Shown here one piece after another: positions 43,034-51,660 of a DNA stretch of 64,000 nucleotides; within the stretch, counting starts at the first letter, position 1, and every line of letters begins with the position of its first letter. The position numbers and the translations under genes are program-made. The notes beneath the pieces were generated by a model that was given only the letters and a program-made list of their open reading frames with translations, did no database searches and had not been told where the DNA came from. Source of the stretch: a phage. Location: the sequence record PZ534515.1. One strand, written 5' to 3'.

Positions 43034-44449
43034 ATGAGCGAGTTATTTAAACATGCGCACCTTCATGCAGGTCGAACTGAAAATGGTGCTGTAAACCATA
43101 CTTCATCAATGTCTGCTCTGGTAGACTTCTACAAAGCCGCTGGCTCAAGCCGTAGCAATGTAGAAATCTTACCAGACCTGTTCTACAAAGCTTTGCGTGA
43201 GGATGTTGATGTTGCAGTTCGTATTTTACTGCATATGCGAGATGTGCGAGAAGGTATGGGTGAGCGTAAAGCTTTCCGAACTGTTTTACTTCAAGCAATT
43301 GAAGATAAAGTTTTAGAACCTACACAGGTTCTCCGCATTATGGATAAGATTGCAGAACTTGGTCGTTTTGATGACTTCAAAATCTTTGTAGGTACTCGTT
43401 TTGAGACAGACGCCTTCAAACATTTAGAAGCAGCATTACTAGACCCTGCAACAGCAGGTTTAGCAGCTAAGTGGTTACCACGAGTAAAACCACGCCACAA
43501 ACAGTTTGTAAAACGTTTCTGTAAGTTTGCAAACTTAAGCGAGAAAGAGTACCGCACACTGTTATCTGCACTGTCTGATACGGTTGAGCAAAAAATCTCT
43601 GCTAATGAGTTTGGTAAGATTGACTACAGCAAGATTCCTTCACTCGCTGCTGCACGTTACCAAAAGCTCTTTAACCGTAAAGATGGGGAACGTTACAAAG
43701 CTTACATCGAGTCACTATCAAAGGGTGAGGCTAAGATTAACGCTGGTGCTGTTTACCCATATGATGTGATTAAATCTATCAAGCATGGTAATGCAGATGT
43801 TGCTAATGAGCAGTGGAAAGCACTACCAAACTGGATGGCAGAAGGTGAGAACATCTTGTGTATGACTGATGTTTCAAGCTCAATGTCTTGGGTGAATCTT
43901 GGTTCAATCACTGCCCTTGATATTGGTGTATCACTTGCCTTGTATGTAGCAGAACGCAATACAGGCTGCTTTAAGAATGAGTTAATGGTTTATTCAACAA
44001 ACCCTCACTTCATTGAACTGAGTGGCGATTTACAAAACCGTCATCGTCAGGTGATGCGTCATGTTGAATATGGTTCAACTAACTTACAAGCAGCTTTTGA
44101 CCGTATTCTTGAAATAGGTAAGAGAAACAACTTGACTCAGAAAGATATGCCAAGTAAGCTTATCATCTTCTCCGATATGGAGTTCAATCAGGTTGATGGA
44201 GCTAACGGTCGTACAAACTTTGAAGCAATTCAGAGTAAGTGCAAAAAAGCTGGATACGAAATGCCACAACTGGTATTCTGGTACTTAGCAAACCGTAATG
44301 GTACTTGCGAAGTATCTGTTAAGGATAATGGTGTAGCAATGGTATCAGGGTTCTCTCCAGCCACTTTAAAAGCTCTGCTTGGTGGTGAGAAGTTTGACCC
44401 AATCAGCGTAATGCTCAAAGCAGTAATGATTGACCGTTACATCTGGTAA
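43034..44449 (+). CDS. vWA-domain protein (MIDAS motif), possibly TROVE/Ro60-like
   Basis: ILCMTDVSSSMS fits the vWA MIDAS D-x-S-x-S motif. Alpha-helical N-terminal half. Located immediately upstream of the tRNA bank. Confidence 0.45.
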   Translation: MSELFKHAHLHAGRTENGAVNHTSSMSALVDFYKAAGSSRSNVEILPDLFYKALREDVDVAVRILLHMRDVREGMGERKAFRTVLLQAIEDKVLEPTQVLRIMDKIAELGRFDDFKIFVGTRFETDAFKHLEAALLDPATAGLAAKWLPRVKPRHKQFVKRFCKFANLSEKEYRTLLSALSDTVEQKISANEFGKIDYSKIPSLAAARYQKLFNRKDGERYKAYIESLSKGEAKINAGAVYPYDVIKSIKHGNADVANEQWKALPNWMAEGENILCMTDVSSSMSWVNLGSITALDIGVSLALYVAERNTGCFKNELMVYSTNPHFIELSGDLQNRHRQVMRHVEYGSTNLQAAFDRILEIGKRNNLTQKDMPSKLIIFSDMEFNQVDGANGRTNFEAIQSKCKKAGYEMPQLVFWYLANRNGTCEVSVKDNGVAMVSGFSPATLKALLGGEKFDPISVMLKAVMIDRYIW

Positions 44450-44467
44450 AAAGTTTCAAAAAGGGTA

Positions 44468-44496
44468 TTGACAATGTGTTTGATACCCTTTAATAT
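44468..44496 (+). promoter_or_regulatory. sigma70-like promoter (TTGACA-17 bp-TAATAT) flanked by an inverted repeat
   Basis: Hexamers read from sequence; aagggtat / ataccctt inverted repeat brackets the -35 and spacer. Upstream of the first tRNA. Confidence 0.55.
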
Positions 44497-44559
44497 GTTC
44501 TACATAGAAACGAAATGAGAGCTTTTCTAAGATACTGAAAAAATATTTTAAAAAAGTTC

Positions 44560-44589
44560 TTGACAACCACTAAAAAATAATGTTAAAGT
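44560..44589 (+). promoter_or_regulatory. second putative promoter upstream of the tRNA bank (TTGACA-17 bp-TAAAGT)
   Basis: Weaker -10; accact / agtggt inverted repeat. Confidence 0.35.
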
Positions 44590-44615
44590 GGTTACATAGA
44601 GTTTGAAAAATTTAT

Positions 44616-44692
44616 CTCTGTTTAGCTCAGCTTGGTAGAGCGTTCCGTTTGGGGCGGTAAGGCCGGAGGTTCAAGTCCTCCAACAGAGACCA
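44616..44692 (+). tRNA. tRNA-Pro (anticodon TGG), CCA encoded
   Basis: Hand-folded: acceptor ctctgtt/aacagag, D-arm gctcagcttggtagagc, anticodon loop ttTGGgg, T-arm ggagg-ttcaagt-cctcc. Confidence 0.7.
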
Positions 44693-44699
44693 AATTAAT

Positions 44700-44777
44700 G
44701 TTCCAGTAGACAAAATGGTAAAGTCACCACTCTTTCAAAGTGGATATTTGAGGGTTCAAATCCCTTCTGGAACGCCA
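44700..44777 (+). tRNA. tRNA-Glu (anticodon TTC), CCA encoded
   Basis: Acceptor gttccag/ctggaac, anticodon stem ccact/agtgg with loop ctTTCaa, T-loop ttcaaat. Confidence 0.7.
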
Positions 44778-44868
44778 GTTTTGACAGAAGACCAATTACA
44801 GCAAACTTAATCTTATTCATCTGAAGATAAATCGGACAAAGAAGAGATTTGGTCTGGTCATTAAGAAT

Positions 44869-44945
44869 TGCGGGTATAGAGAAAGGGCGTCTCACATGTC
44901 TCATTAGCATGGTATCGGCAGGTTCGACTCCTGCACCCGCCTCCA
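44869..44945 (+). tRNA. tRNA with anticodon CAT (Met/fMet or Ile-lysidine); 1:72 position unpaired
   Basis: T-arm gcagg-ttcgact-cctgc; acceptor tgcgggt/acccgcc with first-pair mismatch; anticodon loop ctCATta. Atypical features, so lower confidence. Confidence 0.45.
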
Positions 44946-45022
44946 ATTTTGCAGAAGACCGTATTCAGCAACAAACTACTTTTTGCGGATAAAAGAAAAA
45001 ACACGGTCTGGCAATGTATTAA

Positions 45023-45099
45023 GGTTAGGAAGCACATAAGGTATGTGCGGTCGCCTGTTAAGCGAATGGCACAGGGTTCGAATCCCTGACTAACCGCCA
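45023..45099 (+). tRNA. tRNA-Asn (anticodon GTT), CCA encoded
   Basis: D-arm gcac-ataaggtat-gtgc, anticodon loop ctGTTaa, T-arm caggg-ttcgaat-ccctg. Confidence 0.65.
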
Positions 45100-45170
45100 A
45101 ATTTAGGGGAGAAGCGATTGCTCACCGATTTGTAAGGTGCAAGTCCTTAGCCTGAATAGAATAATAAAAT

Positions 45171-45258
45171 GTGTCGTTATCCCGTAGATGGTAGCGGTGG
45201 GGACTGTAAATCCCTTGTCATTGAGACTCGGTAGGTTCGACTCCTACACGGCACACCA
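45171..45258 (+). tRNA. tRNA-Tyr (anticodon GTA), long variable arm, CCA encoded
   Basis: About 85 nt. Acceptor gtgtcgt/acggcac (one GU), anticodon loop ctGTAaa, T-arm gtagg-ttcgact-cctac. Confidence 0.65.
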
Positions 45259-45264
45259 AATAAA

Positions 45265-45342
45265 GGTTATGTAGTTTAATCTGGTTAAAATACTCCCCTG
45301 TCACGGGAGATGATGAGGGTTCAAATCCCTTCGTAACCGCCA
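45265..45342 (+). tRNA. tRNA-Asp (anticodon GTC), CCA encoded
   Basis: Acceptor ggttatg/cgtaacc, anticodon stem ctccc/gggag with loop ctGTCac, T-loop ttcaaat. Confidence 0.7.
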
Positions 45343-45799
45343 AATTATAATAAGTATTTCAAGATGATGTTTTGAGAGGGCTATTTATCCCCTCCCTTAA
45401 AGAGTTCTTACGAGTATTCTTTAAAGGAGCAGAAGACCAAATACAGCAAGTTACTTAAAATTTCAAGCCAATTTAATTTTGAAAAATTTAAAACTTGGTC
45501 TGGCTCAACAAATTTACAGAAGACCGTTTACAGCAAAACTTAAACAATCTATTTCTCCGGTAAAGAAAAGGCGAAGGTTCGATTCCTTCACTCGGCAGAT
45601 GTCGAGTTGGTGTAATGGTAGCACTTAAGATGATAAACAACGGTCTGGTAATTATCTTTGCAGTAGCTTATGTGGCTAATTATGTCGTCCCATGAGTGCC
45701 GATGAATTTCCTTAGCATGATTCTAGATTAGCTTAATAGGAAATGACTCTACAGACCCTTTAGCAAGGTCTGCGTAGGTTACTGCAAAGGTAATTTAAT

Positions 45800-45875
45800 G
45801 GAAGTGTAGCAGAATGGTGATGCGGCAGACTTTTAATCTGACAGGCGATGGGTTCGAATCCCTCCACTTCTACCA
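45800..45875 (+). tRNA. tRNA-Lys (anticodon TTT), CCA encoded
   Basis: Acceptor ggaagtg/cacttct, D-arm gca-gaatggtga-tgc, anticodon loop ctTTTaa. Weak T-stem (ggg/ccc) shared with the paralogous tRNA-Lys(CTT). Confidence 0.6.
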
Positions 45876-45879
45876 ATAT

Positions 45880-45956
45880 GGTTCAGTCGCAGATAAGGTA
45901 ATGCAGGGGTCTCATAAGCCCTATGAATGTGGGTTCGATTCCCATCTGAACCTCCA
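45880..45956 (+). tRNA. tRNA with anticodon CAT (Met-type), CCA encoded
   Basis: Acceptor ggttcag/ctgaacc, anticodon stem ggggt/gccct with loop ctCATaa, T-arm gtggg-ttcgatt-cccat. Confidence 0.65.
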
Positions 45957-45957
45957 A

Positions 45958-46033
45958 GCTGGTATAGTTAAGAAGGTTATAACACTCCCCTGATAAGGGA
46001 ATATCGGTGGTTCGATTCCACCTACCAGTACCA
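45958..46033 (+). tRNA. tRNA-Ile (anticodon GAT), CCA encoded
   Basis: D-arm gtta-agaaggtta-taac, anticodon loop ctGATaa, T-arm ggtgg-ttcgatt-ccacc. Confidence 0.65.
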
Positions 46034-46048
46034 ATTTCAATAAAGTTG

Positions 46049-46077
46049 TTGACATTAACATGTGACCACTTTATAGT
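46049..46077 (+). promoter_or_regulatory. internal sigma70-like promoter in the tRNA bank (TTGACA-17 bp-TATAGT)
   Basis: Hexamers and spacing read directly. Confidence 0.5.
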
Positions 46078-46278
46078 AACCTTAGTTTTCGTTGCGTAGC
46101 GTCTATTTTGCAAATTTAAAATAAATGCAAACGACAATGTTTTTCTGGCAGTAGCTTGATAGGCTAAACACCAGTGAGGTCTTCCAATCCCTCATCAAAG
46201 AATTTGGCGTACTCGCCCACGGTATGATTAATAAGGTGGGCATCTTTAAGGGCTTTCTAAGAGAGTCTTTAAAGATTA

Positions 46279-46355
46279 ATGCACCCTTAGTTCAATTGGA
46301 TAGAGCAACGGTCTTCTAAATCGTTAGTTACAGGTTCGAATCCTGTAGGGTGTGC
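46279..46355 (+). tRNA. tRNA-Arg (anticodon TCT), CCA encoded
   Basis: D-arm gttc-aattggata-gagc, anticodon stem acggt/atcgt with loop ctTCTaa, T-arm acagg-ttcgaat-cctgt. Confidence 0.7.
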
Positions 46356-46499
46356 CAAATAGTTAGCAGATTGCTTAGACGACCTTATCGGGTCTCCGTG
46401 TAAGGAGGTGGTCTGTATCTCATGTTTTCCAGAACATGTAAATAATCTGAGAAGGGGCTTTACAGTGTTGCGAAAATACGGTAAGCTTCGAATTATAGT

Positions 46500-46582
46500 G
46501 TGGGACGATGTTAAGACTCTAAGGCATGAGCAACGGCCTCCAAAACCGTTTCAAAGGGGTTCAACTCCTCCGTCCCATGCCA
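46500..46582 (+). tRNA. tRNA-like gene, probable tRNA-Trp (anticodon CCA) with an enlarged D region
   Basis: Acceptor gtgggac/gtcccat, anticodon arm aacgg(c)-ctCCAaa-(a)ccgtt, T-loop ttcaact. About 7 extra nt between acceptor and anticodon arm; needs a tRNA scanner. Confidence 0.4.
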
Positions 46583-46595
46583 AAGTCTTATTAGG

Positions 46596-46683
46596 GGTAG
46601 GTAGCGGCTAATGGCAGCCAAACAGTCTTGAAAACTGTTGCCACTGTAGAGATACGGTGAGGGTTCGACTCCTTTACTTACCG
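46596..46683 (+). tRNA. tRNA-Ser (anticodon TGA), long variable arm, CCA not encoded
   Basis: 88 nt. Acceptor ggtaggt/acttacc, anticodon loop ctTGAaa, T-arm gaggg-ttcgact-ccttt. Confidence 0.6.
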
Positions 46684-46837
46684 CCTAATAAGATTTAAAG
46701 CCAAGCTTCATTCGGATGTTGCTTTGGTATCCCTCGTGTATTGTCGTACACACTGATAAAGCACCTAGTAGGTGTCACGGAGAAGAGATAATATCAAGCT
46801 CTCCAAAGGTTCTAGTCACCGGATTAAACAAGACTAT

Positions 46838-46862
46838 GCAAAGACCAATTTAGGTCTTTTTA
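46838..46862 (+). terminator. rho-independent terminator inside the tRNA bank
   Basis: aagacc-aattt-aggtctt hairpin followed by TTTT. Confidence 0.5.
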
Positions 46863-46940
46863 GAGGGCTTCTAAGGTTATTACAGCTTGTTGTGGAACCT
46901 TGTTGCTTAGGTTCTTAGAAGTTCTCTAAAAAGATTTAAT

Positions 46941-47017
46941 GCACCTATAGCCCAACTGGTAGAGGCAGCAGACTTAGAATCTGCTCAGTGTGAGTTCGAA
47001 TCTCTCTAGGTGTACCA
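46941..47017 (+). tRNA. tRNA with anticodon TAG (Leu), short variable arm, CCA encoded
   Basis: Acceptor gcaccta/taggtgt, anticodon stem gcaga/tctgc with loop ctTAGaa, T-loop ttcgaat. Variable loop is only about 5 nt. Confidence 0.55.
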
Positions 47018-47024
47018 AATTAAT

Positions 47025-47100
47025 GCAGGTGTAGCAAAATGGTTATGCGGCTGACTCTTAATCAGTAAGACGATGGGTTCAATTCCCTCCACCTGTACCA
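47025..47100 (+). tRNA. tRNA-Lys (anticodon CTT), CCA encoded
   Basis: Close paralog of tRNA-Lys(TTT): acceptor gcaggtg/cacctgt, anticodon loop ctCTTaa. Confidence 0.6.
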
Positions 47101-47106
47101 AACATT

Positions 47107-47182
47107 GGGGTCATAGTTTATATGGTTAAAATTCGAGTTTTGCAAACTTGGGAACTGAGTTCAATTCTCAGTGACTCCACCA
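47107..47182 (+). tRNA. tRNA-Ala (anticodon TGC), CCA encoded
   Basis: Acceptor ggggtca/tgactcc, anticodon loop ttTGCaa, T-arm ctgag-ttcaatt-ctcag. Confidence 0.65.
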
Positions 47183-47188
47183 ATTAGT

Positions 47189-47263
47189 GCATCCATAGTT
47201 TAAACGGGAAAATTACAGTCTTCCAAACTGAGGTTGAGGGTTCGATTCCCTCTGGATGCTCCA
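47189..47263 (+). tRNA. tRNA-Gly (anticodon TCC), CCA encoded
   Basis: Perfect acceptor gcatcca/tggatgc, anticodon loop ctTCCaa, T-arm gaggg-ttcgatt-ccctc. Confidence 0.7.
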
Positions 47264-47269
47264 AACAAT

Positions 47270-47346
47270 GCTGCTTTCGTATAATTGGCTATTACACATC
47301 CCTTGTAAGGATGGAGATGCGGGTTCAAGTCCTGTGAGCAGCACCA
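47270..47346 (+). tRNA. tRNA-Thr (anticodon TGT), CCA encoded
   Basis: Acceptor gctgctt/gagcagc, anticodon stem catcc/ggatg with loop ctTGTaa, T-loop ttcaagt. Confidence 0.7.
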
Positions 47347-47441
47347 ATTCAGAGGTCAAGTGAAAGACCGCTGGTGTCAACTGAAGACCGTAACAAATTC
47401 CACGGAGTTGAGTTAGCGGCACAACTTCAGACCTCTTTCAT

Positions 47442-47516
47442 ACTCGCTTAGTTTATATGGTAAAACATCACCCTTACAAGATGAAGAAAAAGGTTCAAGT
47501 CCTTTAGTGAGTACCA
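47442..47516 (+). tRNA. tRNA-Val (anticodon TAC), CCA encoded
   Basis: Acceptor actcgct/agtgagt, anticodon loop ctTACaa, T-arm aaagg-ttcaagt-ccttt. Confidence 0.6.
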
Positions 47517-47517
47517 T

Positions 47518-47595
47518 GTTCCAGTATCCCAATTGGCAGAGGATGCAAGCTCAAACCTTGTACTAGTGACGGTTCGAATCCGTCTTGGAACACCA
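47518..47595 (+). tRNA. tRNA with anticodon CAA (Leu), short variable arm, CCA encoded
   Basis: Acceptor gttccag/ttggaac, anticodon stem gcaag/cttgt with loop ctCAAac, T-arm gacgg-ttcgaat-ccgtc. Confidence 0.55.
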
Positions 47596-47600
47596 ATTTT

Positions 47601-47676
47601 GCAGGATTAGTTCAAATGGATAGAGCAACAGTCTACGAAGCTGTTAATAGGGGTTCGAATCCCTTATCCTGCACCA
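47601..47676 (+). tRNA. tRNA-Arg (anticodon ACG), CCA encoded
   Basis: Perfect acceptor gcaggat/atcctgc, D-arm gttc-aaatggata-gagc, anticodon loop ctACGaa. Confidence 0.7.
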
Positions 47677-47695
47677 ATTTAAAGAGGCTATTTAG

Positions 47696-48253
47696 ATGAG
47701 ATATTTGAAGTATGCTTCATGGATTTTCCTAGCTTTGTTAGACCCATTGGCAGCAACCTTAGCAGTTATCTTAGCACCTTTTGTAGTTCCATTCTATAGT
47801 GAGAAGAAAGGACATCTACCTTTTGGATTCAGATGGATGGAGACATATGACAACCCCATTGATGGTGATGAAGGTCACATTAAACGATGGGCTAAGATTA
47901 GAAAGATTGGTAAGCTTGGTGTCTATTTGCAGAGAGTTGGATGGCTCTGGAGAAACAAAGCTTATAACTTCTCTTACCATGTGTTAGGAAGAGATATAAA
48001 AGATGTTACTAAGTGGAAAGGTAATATCAACGTAAGCTCTGACCCTGAAGATAATCAGACAGGTTATCTCCTAATGTGGAACAGTAATGCTTGGGGATTA
48101 TTCGCTTTTATCCCATCAATTAAAGTCTTTGGTAAACAATTCTACTGGAGAATTTATGTTGGGTGGAAACTAAAAAGTGTTGTCCCAGAAGAAAGAGCAT
48201 TCTCAAGGGAAAGAGTTATGTTGGCATTCTTTATTCATCCACTGAGAAAGTAA
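47696..48253 (+). CDS. hypothetical membrane protein embedded in the tRNA bank
   Basis: ATG with AAGAGG 8 nt upstream. N-terminal TM helix (WIFLALLDPLAATLAVILAPFVV), Trp-rich. Flanked by tRNAs on both sides. Confidence 0.5.
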   Translation: MRYLKYASWIFLALLDPLAATLAVILAPFVVPFYSEKKGHLPFGFRWMETYDNPIDGDEGHIKRWAKIRKIGKLGVYLQRVGWLWRNKAYNFSYHVLGRDIKDVTKWKGNINVSSDPEDNQTGYLLMWNSNAWGLFAFIPSIKVFGKQFYWRIYVGWKLKSVVPEERAFSRERVMLAFFIHPLRK

Positions 48254-48261
48254 AGATTTAA

Positions 48262-48337
48262 AGGGGATTAGTTTACAAGGTTAAAACCTCGGTCTTTGAA
48301 ATCGAAGAAGTTGGTTCAATTCCAACATCCCCCGCCA
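48262..48337 (+). tRNA. tRNA-Gln (anticodon TTG), CCA encoded
   Basis: Anticodon stem tcggt/atcga with loop ctTTGaa, T-arm gttgg-ttcaatt-ccaac. Confidence 0.6.
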
Positions 48338-48339
48338 AT

Positions 48340-48418
48340 GCTCCATTACTCCAATTGGCAGAGAGGCCAGACTTAAAATCTGTGTTATGTATCGGTTCGA
48401 ATCCGATATGGAGTACCA
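48340..48418 (+). tRNA. tRNA with anticodon TAA (Leu), variable region about 8 nt, CCA encoded
   Basis: Acceptor gctccat/atggagt, anticodon loop ctTAAaa, perfect T-arm atcgg-ttcgaat-ccgat. Confidence 0.55.
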
Positions 48419-48423
48419 AATTT

Positions 48424-48499
48424 AGCGGTATAGCATAACTGTCAATGCAGCAGTCTCTGAAGCTGTCCTATTAAGGTTCAAATCCTTATGCCGCTGCCA
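48424..48499 (+). tRNA. tRNA-Gln (anticodon CTG), CCA encoded
   Basis: Acceptor agcggta/tgccgct, anticodon loop ctCTGaa, T-arm taagg-ttcaaat-cctta. Confidence 0.65.
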
Positions 48500-48522
48500 C
48501 TTCTAAGGATTCTTACGAGAGT

Positions 48523-48598
48523 CTTTAAATGTGGCCTTATCATAAATGGTAATGACCCATGCTGTGAACATGGTCTATACGGGTTCAAATCCCGTAGG
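48523..48598 (+). tRNA. tRNA-His (anticodon GTG), CCA encoded
   Basis: Anticodon stem ccatg/catgg with loop ctGTGaa, T-arm acggg-ttcaaat-cccgt. Confidence 0.65.
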
Positions 48599-48603
48599 TC
48601 ACC

Positions 48604-48679
48604 CCAATTTATAGTCCAAGTAGCTTATATGGTTAAAGCGCGTGTCTGAAAAACATGAGAAGAGGGTTCAAATCCCACT
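48604..48679 (+). tRNA. tRNA-Phe (anticodon GAA), CCA encoded
   Basis: Acceptor agtccaa/ctggact, anticodon loop ctGAAaa, T-loop ttcaaat. Confidence 0.6.
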
Positions 48680-48695
48680 GGACTACCAATTTCAA

Positions 48696-49439
48696 AGGTG
48701 CTTAATGAAAGAGATGACAGAACAAGGTAAGGAGATTTTTAATCTCTTAAAAACCGGTAGAGGGTTTTCTAATCCCCTTATTACTGGTGCAGCAGTTCTA
48801 GGTGGAACCGTAGCTGCCTCTACATCACTTGTAAGCTCTATTAGCTCTGTAACAGACCCTGCAATGAAGGATAAGCTCATTGCTGCTGGACTTACAACAG
48901 TTCTGCTTAATAGCTTTACAACGAGTCTGACAAGCACTACATCAACTACTAAGACATTGACAGATTATGGTCAAAAATCTATTGATGAGTTTTCCTCACG
49001 TATGCAGGTAGCAAAAGGCTACTCCAATGTTATGGGTGCAGCAGGAGAGCAAGTTGGTTGTACACCATTTAGTGGTATTATGGGTGTTGCTACAGAGTAT
49101 GGTCAAAAAGCTATGGATACAATTAACAGCACACTAGATGGCGTTAATGATGTATTAAGTGACTTACAGGATGCTATTGATAAAGGGCTTGATACTATTT
49201 CTGATTTAGCTAACCAAGCTGTTAGTAAGATTAATGAAGGTATCTCGAAGATTACAGCTTATGCAGATGAAGTTGTGCAGATGATTGAAGAAGAAGCTGC
49301 CCTTATTGCAGAGTACCTTAAAACGAATATCAATGGGTTCTTAGCAGGTATCTTACCAGACTGGTTTGACGATGCTTGTAAAACTGGTGTGATTGACACT
49401 ATTGCAACACCAGAAATGAAGAACGCATTACAGAAATAA
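48696..49439 (+). CDS. hypothetical protein (Ser/Thr/Ala-rich, helical) between tRNA genes
   Basis: In-frame ATG just after tRNA-Phe with AAAGG upstream; the track start at 48642 would overlap the tRNA. Confidence 0.5.
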   Translation, partial: RCLMKEMTEQGKEIFNLLKTGRGFSNPLITGAAVLGGTVAASTSLVSSISSVTDPAMKDKLIAAGLTTVLLNSFTTSLTSTTSTTKTLTDYGQKSIDEFSSRMQVAKGYSNVMGAAGEQVGCTPFSGIMGVATEYGQKAMDTINSTLDGVNDVLSDLQDAIDKGLDTISDLANQAVSKINEGISKITAYADEVVQMIEEEAALIAEYLKTNINGFLAGILPDWFDDACKTGVIDTIATPEMKNALQK

Positions 49440-49440
49440 T

Positions 49441-49533
49441 GGAAGATTAACCCTAAAAGGTAAGGGAGCAGTTTGCTAAACTGCCAGTAGCTGAGAAATC
49501 GGTGTACCAGTTCAAGTCTGGTATCTTCCTCCA
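49441..49533 (+). tRNA. tRNA-Ser (anticodon GCT), long variable arm, CCA encoded
   Basis: Acceptor ggaagat/atcttcc, anticodon stem gcagt/actgc with loop ttGCTaa, T-arm accag-ttcaagt-ctggt. About 90 nt. Confidence 0.65.
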
Positions 49534-49537
49534 ATTT

Positions 49538-49613
49538 GAATCCGTGACAGAAATGGATATGTGCCTGTCTGCAAAACAGGTTTATAAGGGTTCGAGTCCC
49601 TTCGGATTCTCCA
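49538..49613 (+). tRNA. tRNA-Cys (anticodon GCA), CCA encoded
   Basis: Perfect acceptor gaatccg/cggattc, anticodon stem cctgt/acagg with loop ctGCAaa, T-loop ttcgagt. Confidence 0.7.
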
Positions 49614-49654
49614 AGTTATTTTACTCTCTCTCAATTAAAATAATAATAATGCCC

Positions 49655-49712
49655 TGCTATAAGTATTCTTCTTTTCGCTACCGAAGAGTATTTTTAGACA
49701 GGGCTTTTTTTA
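49655..49712 (+). terminator. rho-independent terminator closing the tRNA bank
   Basis: gccctg ... cagggc stem followed by TTTTTTT. Confidence 0.55.
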
Positions 49713-49836
49713 CAGAGTTATACTTTATAAGAAGCCTTATACAGTATGTCTCTGACGTACATTGTGGTTTCTCCTTGACGGTCTCTGTACCGTCTTTTTT
49801 AAGGGGAAACATGGTTAATTATTTGGAGAAAACATA

Positions 49837-50037
49837 ATGAGCGAGACCGTTTATAAAGAACTTTATGAAGCTAATAAGAAGCTAGAATTTATGCAGAATA
49901 CTATCATGGCAATTGCAGACAGATTGTCTGTAGCAACAGGTATTGATATCAAAGAAGCATCTATGGATGCACTTCTTGATGCTGTTGATGCAAAGTTCGA
50001 AGTTAAGAAAGAAGAGACTGCTACAGACTCTGAATAA
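49837..50037 (+). CDS. hypothetical small protein upstream of terminase (possible small terminase subunit or partner)
   Basis: 66 aa, acidic, predicted helical. Function inferred from position only. Confidence 0.3.
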   Translation: MSETVYKELYEANKKLEFMQNTIMAIADRLSVATGIDIKEASMDALLDAVDAKFEVKKEETATDSE

Positions 50038-50058
50038 TTCTATTTGCGGAGGTGCTTA

Positions 50059-51660
50059 ATGGACTTAAATGCTGTTAAGCAGAAGCGAGTGGAAGATGTT
50101 AGGAAAGTCCTAGCTGGAGAGTTGGGGCTTTCTGATGAAGTAAAAGAAATTATCAAATCATTCGGTAAAGACCCCTCTAAATTCCTTCCAACTCAAATTC
50201 TGACTTTATTAAGATACACACCAGACCAAGTTAGACTTATCTTCAAATTGATGACTGATAAGAACTATGTAGCCCCTCAGCCGGGTTCTCAAGAGGTCTT
50301 TTTAAATACTAATGCTGATTTGGTTCTCTATGGTGGTGCTGCTGGTGCTGGTAAAACCGCTGCATTGTTAATGGACTCTTTAAGATTTATTGAAGACCCT
50401 AACTATAACGCTGTATATTTCCGTCGAAATACAACACAGTTACAAGGTGGTTTATGGCCTGCTGCAAAGAAACTATTTGGTAAGTTTGGTGGGGTTCCTC
50501 ACGAGCAGAAGATGACTATCACGTTCCCTTCTGGGGCAACTATCAAGTTCACCTACCTAGAACTTGAAAAGCACGCTGAAGGTCATCAGGGTATTGAATA
50601 CTCGGCTATTTACTTTGACGAAGGTACACACTTCTCTGCTTCACAGATTTCATACCTACAGACTCGTCTACGTTCTGGGGCTGAAGGCGATTCATACATG
50701 AAGATTTCCATGAACCCAGACAGAGACCATTTTATTTATGATTGGGTAGAACCATTCTTAGATGAAGAAGGATATCCAGACCCTGAGAAGTGTGGTCGTA
50801 TTCGTTGGTATGTTATGAATGATGGTGTGATGGTCTCTGATTGGGAGAGAGACAAGATTCTTGAGATGTTCCCTCTTGAGATTCCTCAGACATACACCTT
50901 CATCTCTGGTACGATTGATGATAACCCAATTCTTGACTTCTTAGAACCTAAATACCGTGGTAAGTTGGAAAACAACACACCTGTAAACGTTGCAAGACTT
51001 CGTTTCGGTAACTGGAAGGCTCGTGCAGAAGGTTCAAACTATTGGCAAAGACAATGGTGTGAGATTGTTGATTCACTCCCAGAAGATGTGTTTGATGTCA
51101 GAGCATGGGACTTAGCAGCGACTTTACCATCTGAAATTAACCCTAACCCAGACTGGACAGCGGGTGTTAAGATGGGTAAATCTAAAAAAGACGGTTGCTA
51201 TTATATCATTGATGTAGTAAGATTTAGAGATAGACCCTCTGGAGTCGAAACACAAATTAATTTGACTGCTGAAAGTGACGGTAAGCGAACTGGTATTTTT
51301 ATCCCTCAAGACCCAGGCGCTGCTGGTAAATCCTATGCAACATCCCTCATCAGGAAACTTGCCGAGAAAGGTTATCGCGCAAGAGCTAAACCAACAAATA
51401 AAGATAAAGTTACCCGCTTTGCGGGATTTTCTGCTGCTTCTGAAGCTGGACTTGTAAAAGTCTTGAGAGGCAGTTGGAACGAAGCTTACTTTCAAGAACT
51501 TGAAGGTTTTTGTGGTGACGGTAAAACTAAAGATGACCAAGTGGATGCTACCAGTGATGCTTTCAACAGTCTTAACGAAGTTAAATTATTCAAGCCACCA
51601 TCAATGGGTGCTCACACAGACTTAGTGAGAGGAAACCCATATGAGGGGCTTAGACGTTGA
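50059..51660 (+). CDS. terminase large subunit
   Basis: Walker A VLYGGAAGAGKTAAL, Walker B-like IYFDEGTHF, and a C-terminal nuclease region with conserved acidic residues. GGAGG upstream of the ATG. Confidence 0.75.
   Translation: MDLNAVKQKRVEDVRKVLAGELGLSDEVKEIIKSFGKDPSKFLPTQILTLLRYTPDQVRLIFKLMTDKNYVAPQPGSQEVFLNTNADLVLYGGAAGAGKTAALLMDSLRFIEDPNYNAVYFRRNTTQLQGGLWPAAKKLFGKFGGVPHEQKMTITFPSGATIKFTYLELEKHAEGHQGIEYSAIYFDEGTHFSASQISYLQTRLRSGAEGDSYMKISMNPDRDHFIYDWVEPFLDEEGYPDPEKCGRIRWYVMNDGVMVSDWERDKILEMFPLEIPQTYTFISGTIDDNPILDFLEPKYRGKLENNTPVNVARLRFGNWKARAEGSNYWQRQWCEIVDSLPEDVFDVRAWDLAATLPSEINPNPDWTAGVKMGKSKKDGCYYIIDVVRFRDRPSGVETQINLTAESDGKRTGIFIPQDPGAAGKSYATSLIRKLAEKGYRARAKPTNKDKVTRFAGFSAASEAGLVKVLRGSWNEAYFQELEGFCGDGKTKDDQVDATSDAFNSLNEVKLFKPPSMGAHTDLVRGNPYEGLRR

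What the first reader, a model, noticed from the sequence alone, without database searches (positions are those of the whole stretch)
44616..49613. tRNA bank of 27 candidate genes whose anticodons cover all 20 amino acids
Hand folding gives anticodons TGG, TTC, CAT (two), GTT, GTA, GTC, TTT, CTT, GAT, TCT, ACG, CCA, TGA, GCT, TAG, CAA, TAA, TGC, TCC, TGT, TAC, TTG, CTG, GTG, GAA and GCA, which is at least one tRNA for every amino acid. CCA is encoded in almost all. The bank is driven by its own promoters (44468, 46049) and closed by a terminator (about 49700). A full set implies translational autonomy when host tRNAs are depleted or cleaved, for example by anticodon nucleases.
Basis: seen in the sequence. 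Interest (0 to 1): 0.5.

Follow-up and report, generated by a model that had tools for sequence, protein, structure and literature searches.

The report
Known Felix O1-type phage tRNA cluster
This is the well-known tRNA gene cluster of a Felix O1-type phage: 26 of the 27 calls are ordinary tRNA genes, the "Trp" call is a conserved but odd tRNA-like gene that scanners reject, and the same stretch also holds four unannotated RNA modules that look like partners of the Ro60-like protein encoded just upstream.

Summary
The window is a Felixounavirus genome, 95-97% identical to many sequenced phages. Its tRNA cluster has been described since the Felix O1 genome paper of 2010.

Rfam supports 24 of them. 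The 27th call, Trp/CCA at 46500-46582, is rejected by every scanner. It is nevertheless a conserved cloverleaf: 19 of 19 pairs are kept in 9 phages and 8 pairs show compensatory changes. It has a CCA anticodon, G73 and an encoded CCA end, but about 7 extra bases between the acceptor and D stems. "All 20 amino acids" therefore rests on one non-canonical, untested RNA.

CCA is encoded in 26 of 27.

"Autonomy" is overstated. Strict wobble covers only 77% of phage codon usage, GGT is unserved, and host synthetases are still needed. The published evidence is mixed: the tRNA-Ser(UGA) gene is credited with infection of a host lacking that tRNA, while most tRNAs are dispensable in lab strains.

Beyond the finding, the upstream ORF has a Ro60 fold. 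Four helix-bulge-helix modules sit among the first tRNAs, and one has the arm order of YrlA Y RNAs.

The parts
43034..44449 (+). Ro60-like protein gene (471 aa; DUF2828 + DUF7788/vWA), immediately upstream of the bank
   Evidence: Pfam and PHROG phrog_850 'RNA-binding protein'. AF2 model has pLDDT 88.7. The Foldseek PDB top 12 hits are all Ro60/Rsr/phage phiLo Ro60, prob 1.0, TM 0.5-0.66. 96% nt identity to the gene of Bas63/JohannRWettstein.
44468..44496 (+). sigma-70-like promoter match P1 (TTGACA-17-TAATAT)
   Evidence: 10 of 12 matches; consensus match only
44560..44589 (+). sigma-70-like promoter match P2 (TTGACA-18-TAAAGT, TG extended)
   Evidence: 10 of 12 matches
44616..44692 (+). tRNA-Pro (TGG)
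   Evidence: ARAGORN; Rfam 57.7 bits
44700..44777 (+). tRNA-Glu (TTC)
   Evidence: Rfam 60.6 bits
44782..44860 (+). Y-RNA-like module U1 (outer helix TGAC/GTCA, 5' bulge AGA, inner helix AGACCAA/TTGGTCT, 3' bulge G; TACAGCAA motif)
44869..44945 (+). tRNA-like, anticodon CAT ('Met#1'); non-canonical: 1x72 mismatch, 3-nt connector, U37
   Evidence: ARAGORN; no Rfam hit at E<=10; cloverleaf with 6 covarying pairs in 8 phages
44949..45014 (+). Y-RNA-like module U2
45023..45099 (+). tRNA-Asn (GTT)
   Evidence: Rfam 48 bits
45171..45258 (+). tRNA-Tyr (GTA), long variable arm; called 'pseudo' by tRNAscan-SE in relatives
   Evidence: listed in Rfam only under the tRNA-Sec model, 29.6 bits; Felix O1 Table 1; HP1 annotation
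45265..45342 (+). tRNA-Asp (GTC)
   Evidence: Rfam 65.2 bits
45427..45506 (+). Y-RNA-like module U3
45514..45651 (+). Y-RNA-like module U4: same closing helix-bulge-helix, enclosing V hairpin, T arm (GAAGG TTCGATT CCTTC, 45572-45588), acceptor-like hairpin and D arm (GGTGT AATGGTA GCACT) = YrlA arm order
   Evidence: 3 covarying pairs in the AS hairpin; partial Rfam tRNA hit 45540-45590; found in 252 phage records, never annotated as RNA in the 40 sampled
45749..45777 (+). degenerate mini-module (CTAC-AGACC-CTTTAGCAA-GGTCT-GC-GTAG)
   Evidence: read from the sequence; not tested further
45800..45875 (+). tRNA-Lys (TTT)
   Evidence: Rfam 54.4 bits
45880..45956 (+). tRNA with CAT anticodon ('Met#2'; Met or Ile2 not resolved)
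   Evidence: Rfam 54.3 bits
45958..46033 (+). tRNA-Ile (GAT)
   Evidence: Rfam 63.4 bits
46049..46077 (+). sigma-70-like promoter match P3 (TTGACA-17-TATAGT)
   Evidence: 11 of 12 matches
46281..46357 (+). tRNA-Arg (TCT)
   Evidence: Rfam 62.8 bits
46500..46582 (+). tRNA-Trp-like gene (CCA anticodon, G73, encoded CCA; about 7 extra nt between acceptor and D stem; C31xA39 mismatch or 9-nt loop)
   Evidence: rejected by ARAGORN; Rfam tRNA-Sec model 23 bits; covariation
46596..46685 (+). tRNA-Ser (TGA), the only member without encoded CCA
   Evidence: Rfam 31.1 bits; CCA check; Felixounavirus isolates infect Syn61delta3, credited to a phage seryl-tRNA (PMC12269064)
46941..47017 (+). tRNA-Leu (TAG), short (no long variable arm)
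   Evidence: Rfam 57.3 bits; length
47025..47100 (+). tRNA-Lys (CTT)
   Evidence: Rfam 56.9 bits
47107..47182 (+). tRNA-Ala (TGC)
   Evidence: Rfam 56.9 bits
47189..47263 (+). tRNA-Gly (TCC)
   Evidence: Rfam 59.6 bits
47270..47346 (+). tRNA-Thr (TGT)
   Evidence: Rfam 51.5 bits
47442..47516 (+). tRNA-Val (TAC)
   Evidence: Rfam 60 bits
47518..47595 (+). tRNA-Leu (CAA), short
   Evidence: Rfam 43.6 bits
47601..47676 (+). tRNA-Arg (ACG)
   Evidence: Rfam 61.1 bits
47696..48253 (+). protein gene inside the bank (185 aa, DUF7338; 'holin' or 'membrane protein' in some relatives)
48262..48337 (+). tRNA-Gln (TTG)
   Evidence: Rfam 56.6 bits
48340..48418 (+). tRNA-Leu (TAA), short
   Evidence: Rfam 47.5 bits
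48424..48499 (+). tRNA-Gln (CTG)
   Evidence: Rfam 56.6 bits
48531..48606 (+). tRNA-His (GTG); base -1 is T, so no encoded G-1
   Evidence: Rfam 53.3 bits; sequence
48613..48688 (+). tRNA-Phe (GAA)
   Evidence: Rfam 45 bits
48642..49439 (+). protein gene inside the bank (DUF7217; the real start is probably the ATG at 48705, as in relatives)
49441..49533 (+). tRNA-Ser (GCT)
   Evidence: Rfam 46.2 bits
49538..49613 (+). tRNA-Cys (GCA)
   Evidence: Rfam 56 bits
49651..49712 (+). intrinsic-terminator-like hairpin (GCCCUG...CAGGGC) followed by U7
   Evidence: dG -25.7 kcal/mol, z -6.47, 0 of 200 shuffles fold as well

Best explanation
The stretch is the tRNA gene cluster of a Felixounavirus (Felix O1-type myovirus). 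This is a known feature of the genus.

Twenty-six tRNA genes and one non-canonical tRNA-Trp-like gene lie head to tail on one strand. Two protein genes interrupt them. Host-type sigma-70 promoter matches precede them (44468, 44560, 46049) and a strong intrinsic-terminator-like hairpin ends them (49651-49712).

Inferred mechanism:
- Host RNA polymerase makes polycistronic precursors.
- Host RNase P and 3' processing enzymes release the tRNAs. These already carry CCA, in 26 of 27 cases.
- Host synthetases charge them.

The anticodon set is close to a minimal decoding set: one U34 tRNA per four-codon box, G34 or U34 in the split boxes, and a few C34 extras. It matches the A/U-ending codons that this 39% G+C phage uses far more than its enterobacterial hosts (AGA, AAG, ACA, TCA, CTA, GTA, CCA, GCA, TTA).

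The cluster most likely does two things. It raises the supply of tRNAs for phage-preferred codons, and it provides a conditionally useful back-up when host tRNAs are missing, depleted or cleaved. It does not make translation autonomous.

The first third of the cluster also holds four non-tRNA helix-bulge-helix RNA modules. They most plausibly belong with the Ro60-fold protein encoded directly upstream.
For: Identity of the locus:
- 348 phage records match, and 237 cover at least 80% of the query. The best places of 94 records are at 95-99% identity. The top hits are Felixounaviruses with the same tRNA order.
- Felix O1 was published with 22 tRNAs and a codon-usage analysis (PMC3185647). Twenty-three Felixounavirus genomes carry 17-23 tRNAs by tRNAscan-SE (PMC8300805).

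tRNA calls: ARAGORN finds 26 and Rfam 24.

Encoded CCA, promoter matches and terminator.

Codon match:
- Across 54 long ORFs of the window, the codons that pair by Watson-Crick with the phage anticodons are enriched over E. coli. Examples are AGA 7x, AAG 3.2x, ACA 3x, TCA 2.5x, CTA 2.5x and GTA 2.2x. The E. coli table was taken from memory.
- The same codons are listed as over-represented against Salmonella in PMC3185647.

Function in vivo:
- Eight Felixounavirus REP phages are reported to infect Syn61delta3, which lacks serT and serU. The paper describes phages that infect this strain as encoding an appropriate seryl-tRNA (PMC12269064).
- REP6 and REP9 share this locus at about 95-97% identity.

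Conservation of the layout: the order of Ro60-like gene, promoters and 26 tRNAs recurs in Yersinia phage P778, whose protein is only 53% identical.
Against: - No expression, processing or charging data for this phage were available.
- Promoter-like sites in the region are no more numerous than in shuffled sequence.
- Bas63 tRNAs were mostly dispensable on four laboratory strains, so any benefit is conditional.
- Codon coverage is incomplete. Codons making up 234 per 1000 of usage are unread under strict wobble and about 87 per 1000 under expanded U34 wobble. GGT and GGC account for 51 of these.
- Several members are atypical (Met#1, Tyr, Ser-TGA, the short Leu tRNAs, His without G-1, Trp-like), so their amino-acid identities are inferred from anticodons only.
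Confidence: 0.88

Rival explanations
1. The bank exists mainly as a counter-defence. It replaces host tRNAs that are cleaved or depleted by anticodon nucleases, retron or PARIS-type effectors and the like. The full set is selected for that reason rather than for codon supply.
For: - The set covers 19 to 20 amino acids rather than only the phage-enriched codons. It includes tRNAs whose Watson-Crick codon is not enriched in the phage: CAC 0.78, TGG 0.72, ATG 0.88, TGC 0.71.
- Felixounavirus isolates infect a host lacking tRNA-Ser(UGA) and tRNA-Ser(CGA), which is credited to a phage seryl-tRNA.
- The papers cite phage tRNAs as a route around tRNA nucleases (van den Berg 2023 and Azam 2024, cited).
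- Most BASEL Felixounavirus species escape the tRNA-cutting retron Eco2.
- Several members have unusual anticodon arms: Trp-like has C31xA39 and Met#1 has U37.
Against: - No tRNA-targeting defence has been shown to be countered by a tRNA of this genus in the papers read.
- The anticodon choice tracks phage codon bias closely, which codon supply explains on its own.
- The tRNAs are non-essential on K-12-type strains, which is uninformative either way.
Confidence: 0.35
2. Part of the 'bank' is not a decoding device. The four helix-bulge-helix modules (U1-U4), and possibly the scanner-rejected members (Met#1, Trp-like), are Y-RNA-type tRNA mimics. They bind the Ro60-like protein encoded upstream and act in RNA surveillance or counter-defence.
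For: - The upstream ORF has the Ro60 fold.
- In Bas63 the equivalent gene, g130, counters the ppl defence. The authors speculate that some 'tRNAs' are Y RNAs.
- U1-U4 share an outer helix, AGA bulge, AGACC helix, TACAGCAA motif, then GGTCT, a G bulge and the outer helix again. Across 15 distinct copies 93% of cells pair and 6 of 12 pairs covary, while the slid controls are near zero.
- U4 encloses V, T, AS and D arms in the order that defines YrlA.
- Modules of the same design follow the Ro60-like gene in Yersinia phage P778. They also follow it in a 143-kb phage contig, where one hits Rfam YrlA full length at 40.9 bits, E 1.5e-7.
- Wc4-1 lacks both the gene and the modules.
- The gene and U4 each occur in 252 phage records.
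Against: - U4 itself gives no Rfam YrlA hit at E<=10.
- The YrlA 5' motif GNCGAAN0-1G is only approximated, as C-AGAAG.
- There are no binding or expression data.
- The modules could instead be processing or termination signals of the tRNA precursor.
- Trp-like is kept in Wc4-1 without the Ro60-like gene. Both Trp-like and Met#1 carry CCA ends and anticodon loops, which suits tRNAs better than Y RNAs.
Confidence: 0.5
3. The Trp-like element and other atypical members are decaying pseudogenes in a dispensable, homing-endonuclease-ridden region. The true coverage is 19 amino acids or fewer.
For: - Scanners reject Trp-like.
- tRNAscan-SE labels Tyr as pseudo and omits Met#1, Asn and Ser in some relatives.
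- tRNA content varies among relatives, and endonuclease genes are inserted in the cluster of SP22.
- Bas63 tRNAs are mostly non-essential.
Against: - In Trp-like all 19 pairs are kept and 8 show compensatory changes across four genera plus Wc4-1. The anticodon loop, the G73-CCA end and the inserted segment are all conserved.
- Met#1 has 6 compensatory pairs.
- Decay would break pairs rather than compensate for them.
Confidence: 0.12

Closest known systems
tRNA cluster of Salmonella phage Felix O1 and other Felixounavirus / Ounavirinae genomes (Whichard et al. 2010, PMC3185647; PMC8300805)
   Same: Same genes in the same order at 95-97% nucleotide identity: Pro-Glu-Met-Asn-Tyr-Asp ... Ser-Cys. 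The flanks also match, with the DUF2828 gene upstream and terminase downstream. G+C and codon bias are the same.
   Different: Nothing essential differs. Published counts are lower (17-23, tRNAscan-SE) because several members are non-canonical. Individual phages have lost members or gained homing endonuclease genes. None of the records looked at annotates the Trp-like gene or the U1-U4 modules.
Large tRNA sets of other lytic phages (T5 with about 24, T4 with 8, and others; counts are own knowledge; general hypotheses of Bailly-Bechet 2007 and van den Berg 2023, as cited)
   Same: Clustered, co-oriented tRNA genes with short spacers, transcribed by the host polymerase. They are biased to codons the phage uses more than the host, and are proposed as insurance against tRNA depletion or nucleases.
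   Different: Different lineage and gene order. Here the cluster is headed by a Ro60-like gene and interleaved with Y-RNA-like modules.
YrlA-type bacterial and phage Y RNAs with Ro60/Rsr (Chen et al. 2014, PMC4201824; Rfam RF02553; Thermus phage phiLo Ro60-Yrl, PMC12135203)
   Same: For module U4: it lies on the same strand, 1.1 kb downstream of a Ro60-fold gene. A terminal stem-bulge-stem carries a purine-rich motif on its 5' strand. Inside are V, T, AS and D arms in that order, with tRNA-like T and D loops. A homologous-context module in another phage hits RF02553.
   Different: The protein is DUF2828-type and is not recognised as TROVE by sequence. U4 does not score on RF02553. The motif is C-AGAAG plus TACAGCAA rather than GNCGAAN0-1G. 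There are four tandem modules, three of them without a tRNA-like core, embedded in a tRNA operon.
E. coli tRNA-Trp (sequence and identity rules are own knowledge)
   Same: For 46500-46582: anticodon loop CUCCAAA, discriminator G73, A1-U72 in most relatives (G-U here), a 5-nt variable region, a T loop and a CCA end.
   Different: About 7 extra nucleotides lie between the acceptor and D stems. The D stem has 3 good pairs. There is a C31xA39 mismatch, with an extra 26-44 pair. The acceptor/T geometry is 8/4 or 7/5-with-mismatch. Both scanners reject it.

Membership tests
tRNA genes (Rfam RF00005 / ARAGORN model) | Cloverleaf scoring above the curated threshold, with a 7-nt anticodon loop | tested here: met
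   Met for 24 genes by Rfam (31-65 bits, GA 29) and for 26 by ARAGORN. Met#1 and Tyr pass ARAGORN only.
tRNA genes (Rfam RF00005 / ARAGORN model), applied to the Trp-like element 46500-46582 | Detection by a tRNA scanner | tested here: not met
   Not called by ARAGORN at default or relaxed thresholds. The best Rfam score is 23 bits on the tRNA-Sec model, whose GA is 47.
tRNA genes, applied to the Trp-like element | Four-helix cloverleaf maintained by compensatory substitutions | tested here: met
   19 of 19 pairs are 100% paired, 8 with double changes, and the slid controls give 0. RNAalifold finds the same fold on its own.
tRNA-Trp (E. coli TrpRS substrate) | CCA anticodon and G73 discriminator (identity rules from own knowledge) | tested here: met
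   Both are invariant in 9 sequences.
tRNA-Trp (E. coli TrpRS substrate) | Aminoacylation with Trp and decoding of UGG | not testable with these tools
   Needs acid-gel northern blots, tRNA-seq or in vitro charging.
Felixounavirus tRNA cluster | Synteny and high nucleotide identity to the cluster of sequenced members of the genus | tested here: met
   95-97% identity over 6.2 kb to dozens of Felixounavirus records with the same gene order.
Bacterial initiator tRNA-fMet, applied to Met#1 | Mismatch at 1-72 | tested here: met
   UxC, CxC, AxC or AxA in all 8 sequences.
Bacterial initiator tRNA-fMet, applied to Met#1 | Three consecutive G-C pairs at 29-31/39-41 (own knowledge of the family) | tested here: not met
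   The stem is C-G, A-U, U-A, G-C, U-G. Met#1 is therefore not filed as an initiator.
Ro60 / TROVE proteins, applied to ORF 43034-44449 | HEAT-repeat ring plus vWA fold | tested here: met
   The confident AF2 model matches Ro60 structures over its full length, and all top 12 hits are Ro60.
Ro60 / TROVE proteins, applied to ORF 43034-44449 | Sequence membership (Pfam TROVE, or a PDB Ro60 hit by sequence) | tested here: not met
   Pfam gives DUF2828 + DUF7788. phmmer against PDB finds no Ro60.
YrlA Y RNAs (RF02553), applied to module U4 | Within 4 kb of a Ro60 gene and on the same strand | tested here: met
   U4 starts 1065 nt after the stop codon, on the + strand.
YrlA Y RNAs (RF02553), applied to module U4 | V, T, AS and D stem-loops in that order inside a terminal stem; T and D conserved, AS variable but paired | tested here: met
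   RNAalifold on 8 sequences gives an invariant T arm, a near-invariant D arm and an AS hairpin with 3 compensatory pairs. The definition is from PMC4201824.
YrlA Y RNAs (RF02553), applied to module U4 | Score on the Rfam covariance model | tested here: not met
   No hit at E<=10 in 6.2-kb and 166-nt searches. A module of the same design in L014 scores 40.9 bits (GA 69), E 1.5e-7.
YrlA Y RNAs (RF02553), applied to module U4 | 5' motif GNCGAAN0-1G | tested here: inconclusive
   All modules have NC-AGAAG-ACC at the bulge/helix junction, which is similar but not identical.
YrlA Y RNAs (RF02553), applied to module U4 | Binding to the Ro60 protein | not testable with these tools
   Needs RIP, CLIP or EMSA.

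The most novel reading that the evidence does not exclude
The locus is more than a tRNA operon. It is a Ro60-like RNP module fused to a tRNA bank.

The DUF2828-type Ro60 protein would bind the four tandem helix-bulge-helix RNAs (U1-U4, 44782-45651). U4 is a divergent YrlA-type tRNA mimic. The complex would act on tRNA or RNA quality control, or on counter-defence; the Bas63 equivalent counters ppl.

The same RNA design, including the TACAGCAA motif, recurs next to DUF2828 genes in unrelated large phages. That would make it an undescribed, widespread phage Y-RNA class.

In addition, the genus would encode a functional tRNA-Trp with an unprecedented 7-nt insertion at positions 8-9, completing a 20-amino-acid set that all annotations miss.
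Probability: 0.45. Interest if true: 0.65.

Novelty: already known. Interest (0 to 1): 0.3.

Why it matters
The tRNA bank matters little as a discovery. It is a textbook feature of Felix O1-type phages. Both its general rationale (codon supply and a back-up for missing host tRNAs) and its limits have been published.

Three by-products are useful:
1. Public annotations of about 250 genomes miss a conserved, structurally constrained tRNA-Trp-like gene. They also disagree on 3 to 5 other non-canonical members, so statements about which amino acids these phages cover depend on the scanner used.
2. The claim of translational autonomy can be bounded. GGT/GGC, the NNC codons of the four-codon boxes, AUA and CGG have no assured phage decoder.
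3. The Ro60-like anti-defence protein of this genus (g130 in Bas63) had no known RNA partner. The four covarying modules next to it are concrete candidates that can be tested directly.

Tried and rejected
- Relaxed ARAGORN thresholds (ps95 to ps85) gave no extra calls, so Trp is not merely just under the threshold.
- Rfam at E<=10 over the bank found only tRNA-related hits and chance hits (Plastid-ycf2 on antisense tRNAs, miRNA hairpins). A sub-threshold tmRNA_permuted hit at 45975-46159 (27.8 bits, GA 47) and a 749-nt 'permuted tmRNA' called by ARAGORN in HP1 were judged to be artefacts of tRNA-like pieces.
- Rfam YrlA on U4 gave no hit.
- Sequence searches of the upstream protein against PDB and NCBIfam gave nothing useful. 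Only the fold search showed the Ro60 relationship.
- I considered the alternative pairing register for the repeats, with each GGTCTGG pairing with the following AGAAGACC so that Met#1 would sit inside a Y-like stem. I rejected it because the outer helices match only in the AGAAGACC-then-GGTCTGG register, where they are 100% paired with 3 of 4 pairs covarying.
- I looked for an alternative D-arm fold for the extra bases of Trp-like (ATG/CAT, TTA/TAA). These pairings are not conserved in Wc4-1.
- Whether either CAT tRNA is tRNA-Ile2 (lysidine) was not resolved. AUA is rare in this phage, at 2.9 per 1000.
- A search of the paper library for DUF2828 returned only irrelevant plant and tardigrade papers.
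- No supplementary tables are held for Chen 2014, so I could not check whether any Ounavirinae phage was among its 22 phages.

Full report
**What the window is.** Megablast of 44000-50200 against phage records finds 348 records, and 237 of them cover at least 80% of the query. The best hits are at 95-97% identity and are Salmonella, Shigella and Escherichia phages of the genus Felixounavirus, for example SapYZU01, Z31, JH2, SP22 and LTH02. Their annotation shows the same order of tRNA genes between a DUF2828/'RNA-binding protein' gene and the large terminase gene. The window has about 39% G+C. Felix O1 itself was published with 22 tRNAs and a codon-usage discussion (PMC3185647). A comparison of 23 Felixounavirus genomes reports 17-23 tRNAs by tRNAscan-SE (PMC8300805). 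The object of the finding is therefore a known feature of a known genus.

**Check of the observation.**
- ARAGORN finds 26 tRNA genes from 44616 to 49613, all on the + strand.
- Rfam's tRNA model passes its gathering score for 24 of them, at 31-65 bits.
- Rfam gives nothing at all for the first CAT gene (44869-44945). Tyr is listed only under the tRNA-Sec model, at 29.6 bits.
- Lowering ARAGORN's thresholds adds nothing.
- CCA is encoded in 26 of the 27 candidates. Ser-TGA ends in CCT.
- The three best promoter matches in the region, all with a perfect TTGACA, are on the + strand at 44468, 44560 and 46049. The total count of promoter-like sites equals that of shuffles, so these remain consensus matches.
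- A 20-pair hairpin followed by U7 lies at 49651-49712, with dG -25.7 kcal/mol and z -6.5.

**The 27th candidate (Trp).** The sequence at 46500-46582 scores only 23 bits, on Rfam's tRNA-Sec model. It is present in 236 phage records. None of the 40 records sampled annotates a tRNA there.

I aligned it from nine phages: Felixounavirus, Suspvirus, Mooglevirus and Pectobacterium phage Wc4-1. A cloverleaf is kept in every sequence:
- 19 of 19 pairs are 100% paired.
- 8 pairs show changes on both sides. For example the anticodon stem reads AACGG/CCGTT, GTAAG/CTTAC and GTAGG/CCTAC; the D stem reads CTC/GAG and CAC/GTG; T-stem pair 50-64 is G-C or U-A; acceptor pair 2-71 is U-A or C-G.
- The slid controls show no such changes.
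- RNAalifold predicts the same fold independently.

The anticodon loop CUCCAAA, the discriminator G and the CCA end are invariant. Position 1-72 is A-U in most sequences and G-U here. From my own knowledge of the family, CCA plus G73 are the main E. coli TrpRS identity elements.

The RNA is abnormal in several ways:
- About 7 extra, invariant nucleotides (GATGTTAAG in place of positions 8-9) lie between the acceptor and D stems.
- The D stem has three good pairs.
- Positions 31 and 39 are a CxA mismatch (CxC in Wc4-1 and P778), offset by an extra 26-44 pair.
- The acceptor and T stems can be read as 8 and 4 pairs.

It is therefore a selected, tRNA-shaped RNA with a Trp anticodon. Whether it is charged and decodes UGG is untested. 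The claim that all 20 amino acids are covered rests on it.

**Other atypical members.**
- Met#1 (44869-44945) is a conserved cloverleaf with six compensatory pairs. It has a mismatch at 1-72 in all eight phages, three nucleotides between the acceptor and D stems, and U at position 37. It lacks the three G-C pairs of bacterial initiators, so I do not file it as one.
- The three Leu tRNAs are 74-76 nt without CCA, so they have no long variable arm.
- The His gene has T at position -1.
- Tyr is labelled 'pseudo' by tRNAscan-SE in Felix O1 and HP1.
- Records annotated with tRNAscan-SE often omit Met#1, Asn and both Ser genes.

Amino-acid identities inferred from anticodons are therefore plausible but not assured for about a quarter of the set.

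**What the bank does.** I took codon usage from 54 long ORFs of the window. Codons that pair by Watson-Crick with the phage anticodons are used far more than in E. coli: AGA 7x, AAG 3.2x, ACA 3x, TCA 2.5x, CTA 2.5x, GTA 2.2x, CCA 1.9x and GCA 1.6x. The E. coli frequencies were recalled from memory. The Felix O1 paper reaches the same list against Salmonella.

The set looks like a near-minimal decoder: one U34 tRNA per four-codon box, ACG for CGN, G34 or U34 in the split boxes, and C34 extras for Lys, Gln, Leu, Met and Trp.

Coverage is not complete.
- With strict wobble, codons making up 234 per 1000 are unread.
- If U34 in the four-codon boxes other than Gly also reads U, about 87 per 1000 remain unread. 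These are GGT/GGC (51), the NNC codons of six boxes, AUA and CGG.
- Yersinia phage P778 has an extra tRNA-Gly(GCC) that fills exactly that gap.

The published experimental evidence points both ways:
- Eight Felixounavirus isolates are among the phages reported to infect Syn61delta3, which lacks the decoders of TCA and TCG. The paper describes the phages that infect this strain as encoding an appropriate seryl-tRNA (PMC12269064). REP6 and REP9 share this locus.
- In Bas63 the tRNA genes were mostly non-essential on four laboratory strains. The authors regard them as a conditional toolbox (PMC11482910).

My reading is codon supply plus conditional back-up. It is not autonomy.

**Surroundings: a Ro60-like gene.** The ORF ending 167 nt before the first tRNA (43034-44449, 471 aa) carries DUF2828 and DUF7788/vWA and belongs to PHROG 850, 'RNA-binding protein'. 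Sequence search against PDB finds nothing. An AlphaFold model built from a 40-sequence alignment has pLDDT 88.7. It matches Ro60 structures over its whole length. The top 12 Foldseek hits are all Ro60: Xenopus, human, Deinococcus Rsr and Thermus phage phiLo, with probability 1.0 and TM 0.5-0.66. The gene of Bas63 (JohannRWettstein, MZ501086.1) is 96% identical. By position it corresponds to that phage's g130. The PhageMaP preprint reports g130 as structurally Ro60-like, as a counter to the ppl defence, and as lying directly upstream of the tRNAs. The preprint speculates that some 'tRNAs' might be Y RNAs.

**Surroundings: four RNA modules that are not tRNAs.** AGAAGACC occurs four times on the + strand, at 44786, 44953, 45431 and 45518. 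Each is followed 52-124 nt later by GGTCTGG. Each pair folds into the same closing structure:
- a 4-bp outer helix;
- a 3-nt 5' bulge (AGA);
- a 7-bp inner helix (AGACCNN/NNGGTCT);
- a 1-nt 3' bulge (G);
- the motif T(A/T)CAGCAA just after the 5' strand.

Across 15 distinct copies (paralogues and orthologues) 93% of cells pair. Three of the four outer-helix pairs and two inner-helix pairs covary cleanly; a sixth, terminal inner pair varies but is mostly unpaired. Slid controls are near zero. The opposite pairing register does not give matching outer helices, so I rejected it.

Modules U1-U3 have AT-rich interiors. U4 (45514-45651) encloses a small hairpin, a perfect T arm (GAAGG TTCGATT CCTTC), a hairpin whose sequence varies with three compensatory pairs, and a D arm (GGTGT AATGGTA GCACT). 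That V, T, AS, D order inside a terminal bulged stem is the defining architecture of YrlA Y RNAs. These are encoded within 4 kb of Ro60 genes on the same strand (PMC4201824).

U4 does not score on Rfam's YrlA model, and the 5' motif (C-AGAAG) only resembles GNCGAAN0-1G. Context supports the link all the same:
- Yersinia phage P778 has a protein 53% identical and the same layout. Its modules have a helix that changed with compensation (GGACTGT/ACAGTCC and GGATTC/GAATCC) and keep the CAGCAA motif.
- In a 143-kb phage contig (protein 51% identical), a promoter and five modules of the same design directly follow the gene. Three have T-AS-D cores. One hits Rfam YrlA full length at 40.9 bits, E 1.5e-7, which is below the GA of 69.
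- Vibrio phage phi-pp2 has GACATTTTACAGCAA just upstream of its gene.
- Pectobacterium phage Wc4-1 has no homologue of the protein anywhere in its genome and none of the modules. It does keep the tRNAs and the Trp-like gene.
- The protein gene and U4 are each found in 252 phage records.

None of the 40 records sampled annotates U4 as an RNA. None of the papers found describes Y RNAs in these phages. I rate at about 0.5 the reading that U1-U4 are the RNA partners of the Ro60-like protein. The main alternative is that they are processing or punctuation elements of the tRNA precursor.

**Verdict.** The tRNA bank is already known and of low interest. The unannotated Trp-like gene and the Ro60-associated modules are the parts worth follow-up. 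They are listed with coordinates and with the experiments that would decide them.

Noticed in passing
43034-44449 (+): The ORF just upstream of the bank has DUF2828 + vWA domains and a full-length Ro60 fold. The Foldseek top 12 hits are all Ro60. The equivalent gene in Bas63 is reported to counter the ppl defence.
   Followed up: yes
44782-44860, 44949-45014, 45427-45506, 45514-45651 (+): Four tandem helix-bulge-helix RNA modules (AGAAGACC ... GGTCTGG with covarying outer helices and a TACAGCAA motif). The fourth encloses T, acceptor-like and D arms in YrlA order. None is annotated in the public records sampled, and none is in Rfam.
   Followed up: yes
L014 6518-7125; L010 8130-8890; L013 4950-5000 and about 1590-1620: Modules of the same design follow DUF2828 Ro60-like genes in a 143-kb phage contig (one hits Rfam YrlA at 40.9 bits) and in Yersinia phage P778. 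The motif alone also sits next to the gene in Vibrio phage phi-pp2. Wc4-1 lacks both the gene and the modules.
   Followed up: partly
44869-44945 (+): The first CAT tRNA is invisible to Rfam. It has a conserved 1x72 mismatch, a 3-nt connector and U37, and sits between modules U1 and U2. Its identity (initiator-like, elongator or mimic) is unresolved.
   Followed up: partly
46941-47017, 47518-47595, 48340-48418 (+): All three tRNA-Leu genes lack the long variable arm typical of bacterial tRNA-Leu. In Wc4-1, Leu-TAA is 87 nt, which suggests a long arm there. All three have A73.
   Followed up: no
48531-48606 (+): tRNA-His has T at position -1, so the G-1 identity element is not encoded.
   Followed up: no
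45749-45777 and about 47380-47415 (+): These look like degenerate copies of the module. One is a mini-hairpin, CTAC-AGACC-CTTTAGCAA-GGTCT-GC-GTAG. The other is a 5' half, CTGAAGACCGTAAC, with a shortened partner.
   Followed up: no
46250-46280, 46862-46940, 48500-48530, 45398-45430 (+): Related short sequences recur just upstream of several tRNAs or modules (GGGCTTTCTAAGAGAGTCTTTAAAGATTAATG and variants). The copy at 46848-46940 forms a long hairpin. Their function is unknown; they may be processing signals or scars of endonuclease-gene insertion.
   Followed up: no
47696-48253 and 48705-49439 (+); L001 3071-3418, 4010-4462, 4801-5214: Two conserved protein genes (DUF7338 and DUF7217, both membrane-protein-like in some annotations) sit inside the bank. 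In SP22, two extra genes annotated as putative endonucleases and one hypothetical gene are inserted between tRNAs, and tRNA-Arg(TCT) is missing.
   Followed up: partly
46084-46280 (+): About 200 nt of conserved non-coding sequence lies between promoter P3 and tRNA-Arg(TCT). It includes a tRNA-5'-half-like stretch, GCAGTAGCTTGATAGGCTAA, which also occurs at 45661. Rfam gives only a sub-threshold tmRNA_permuted hit nearby.
   Followed up: no
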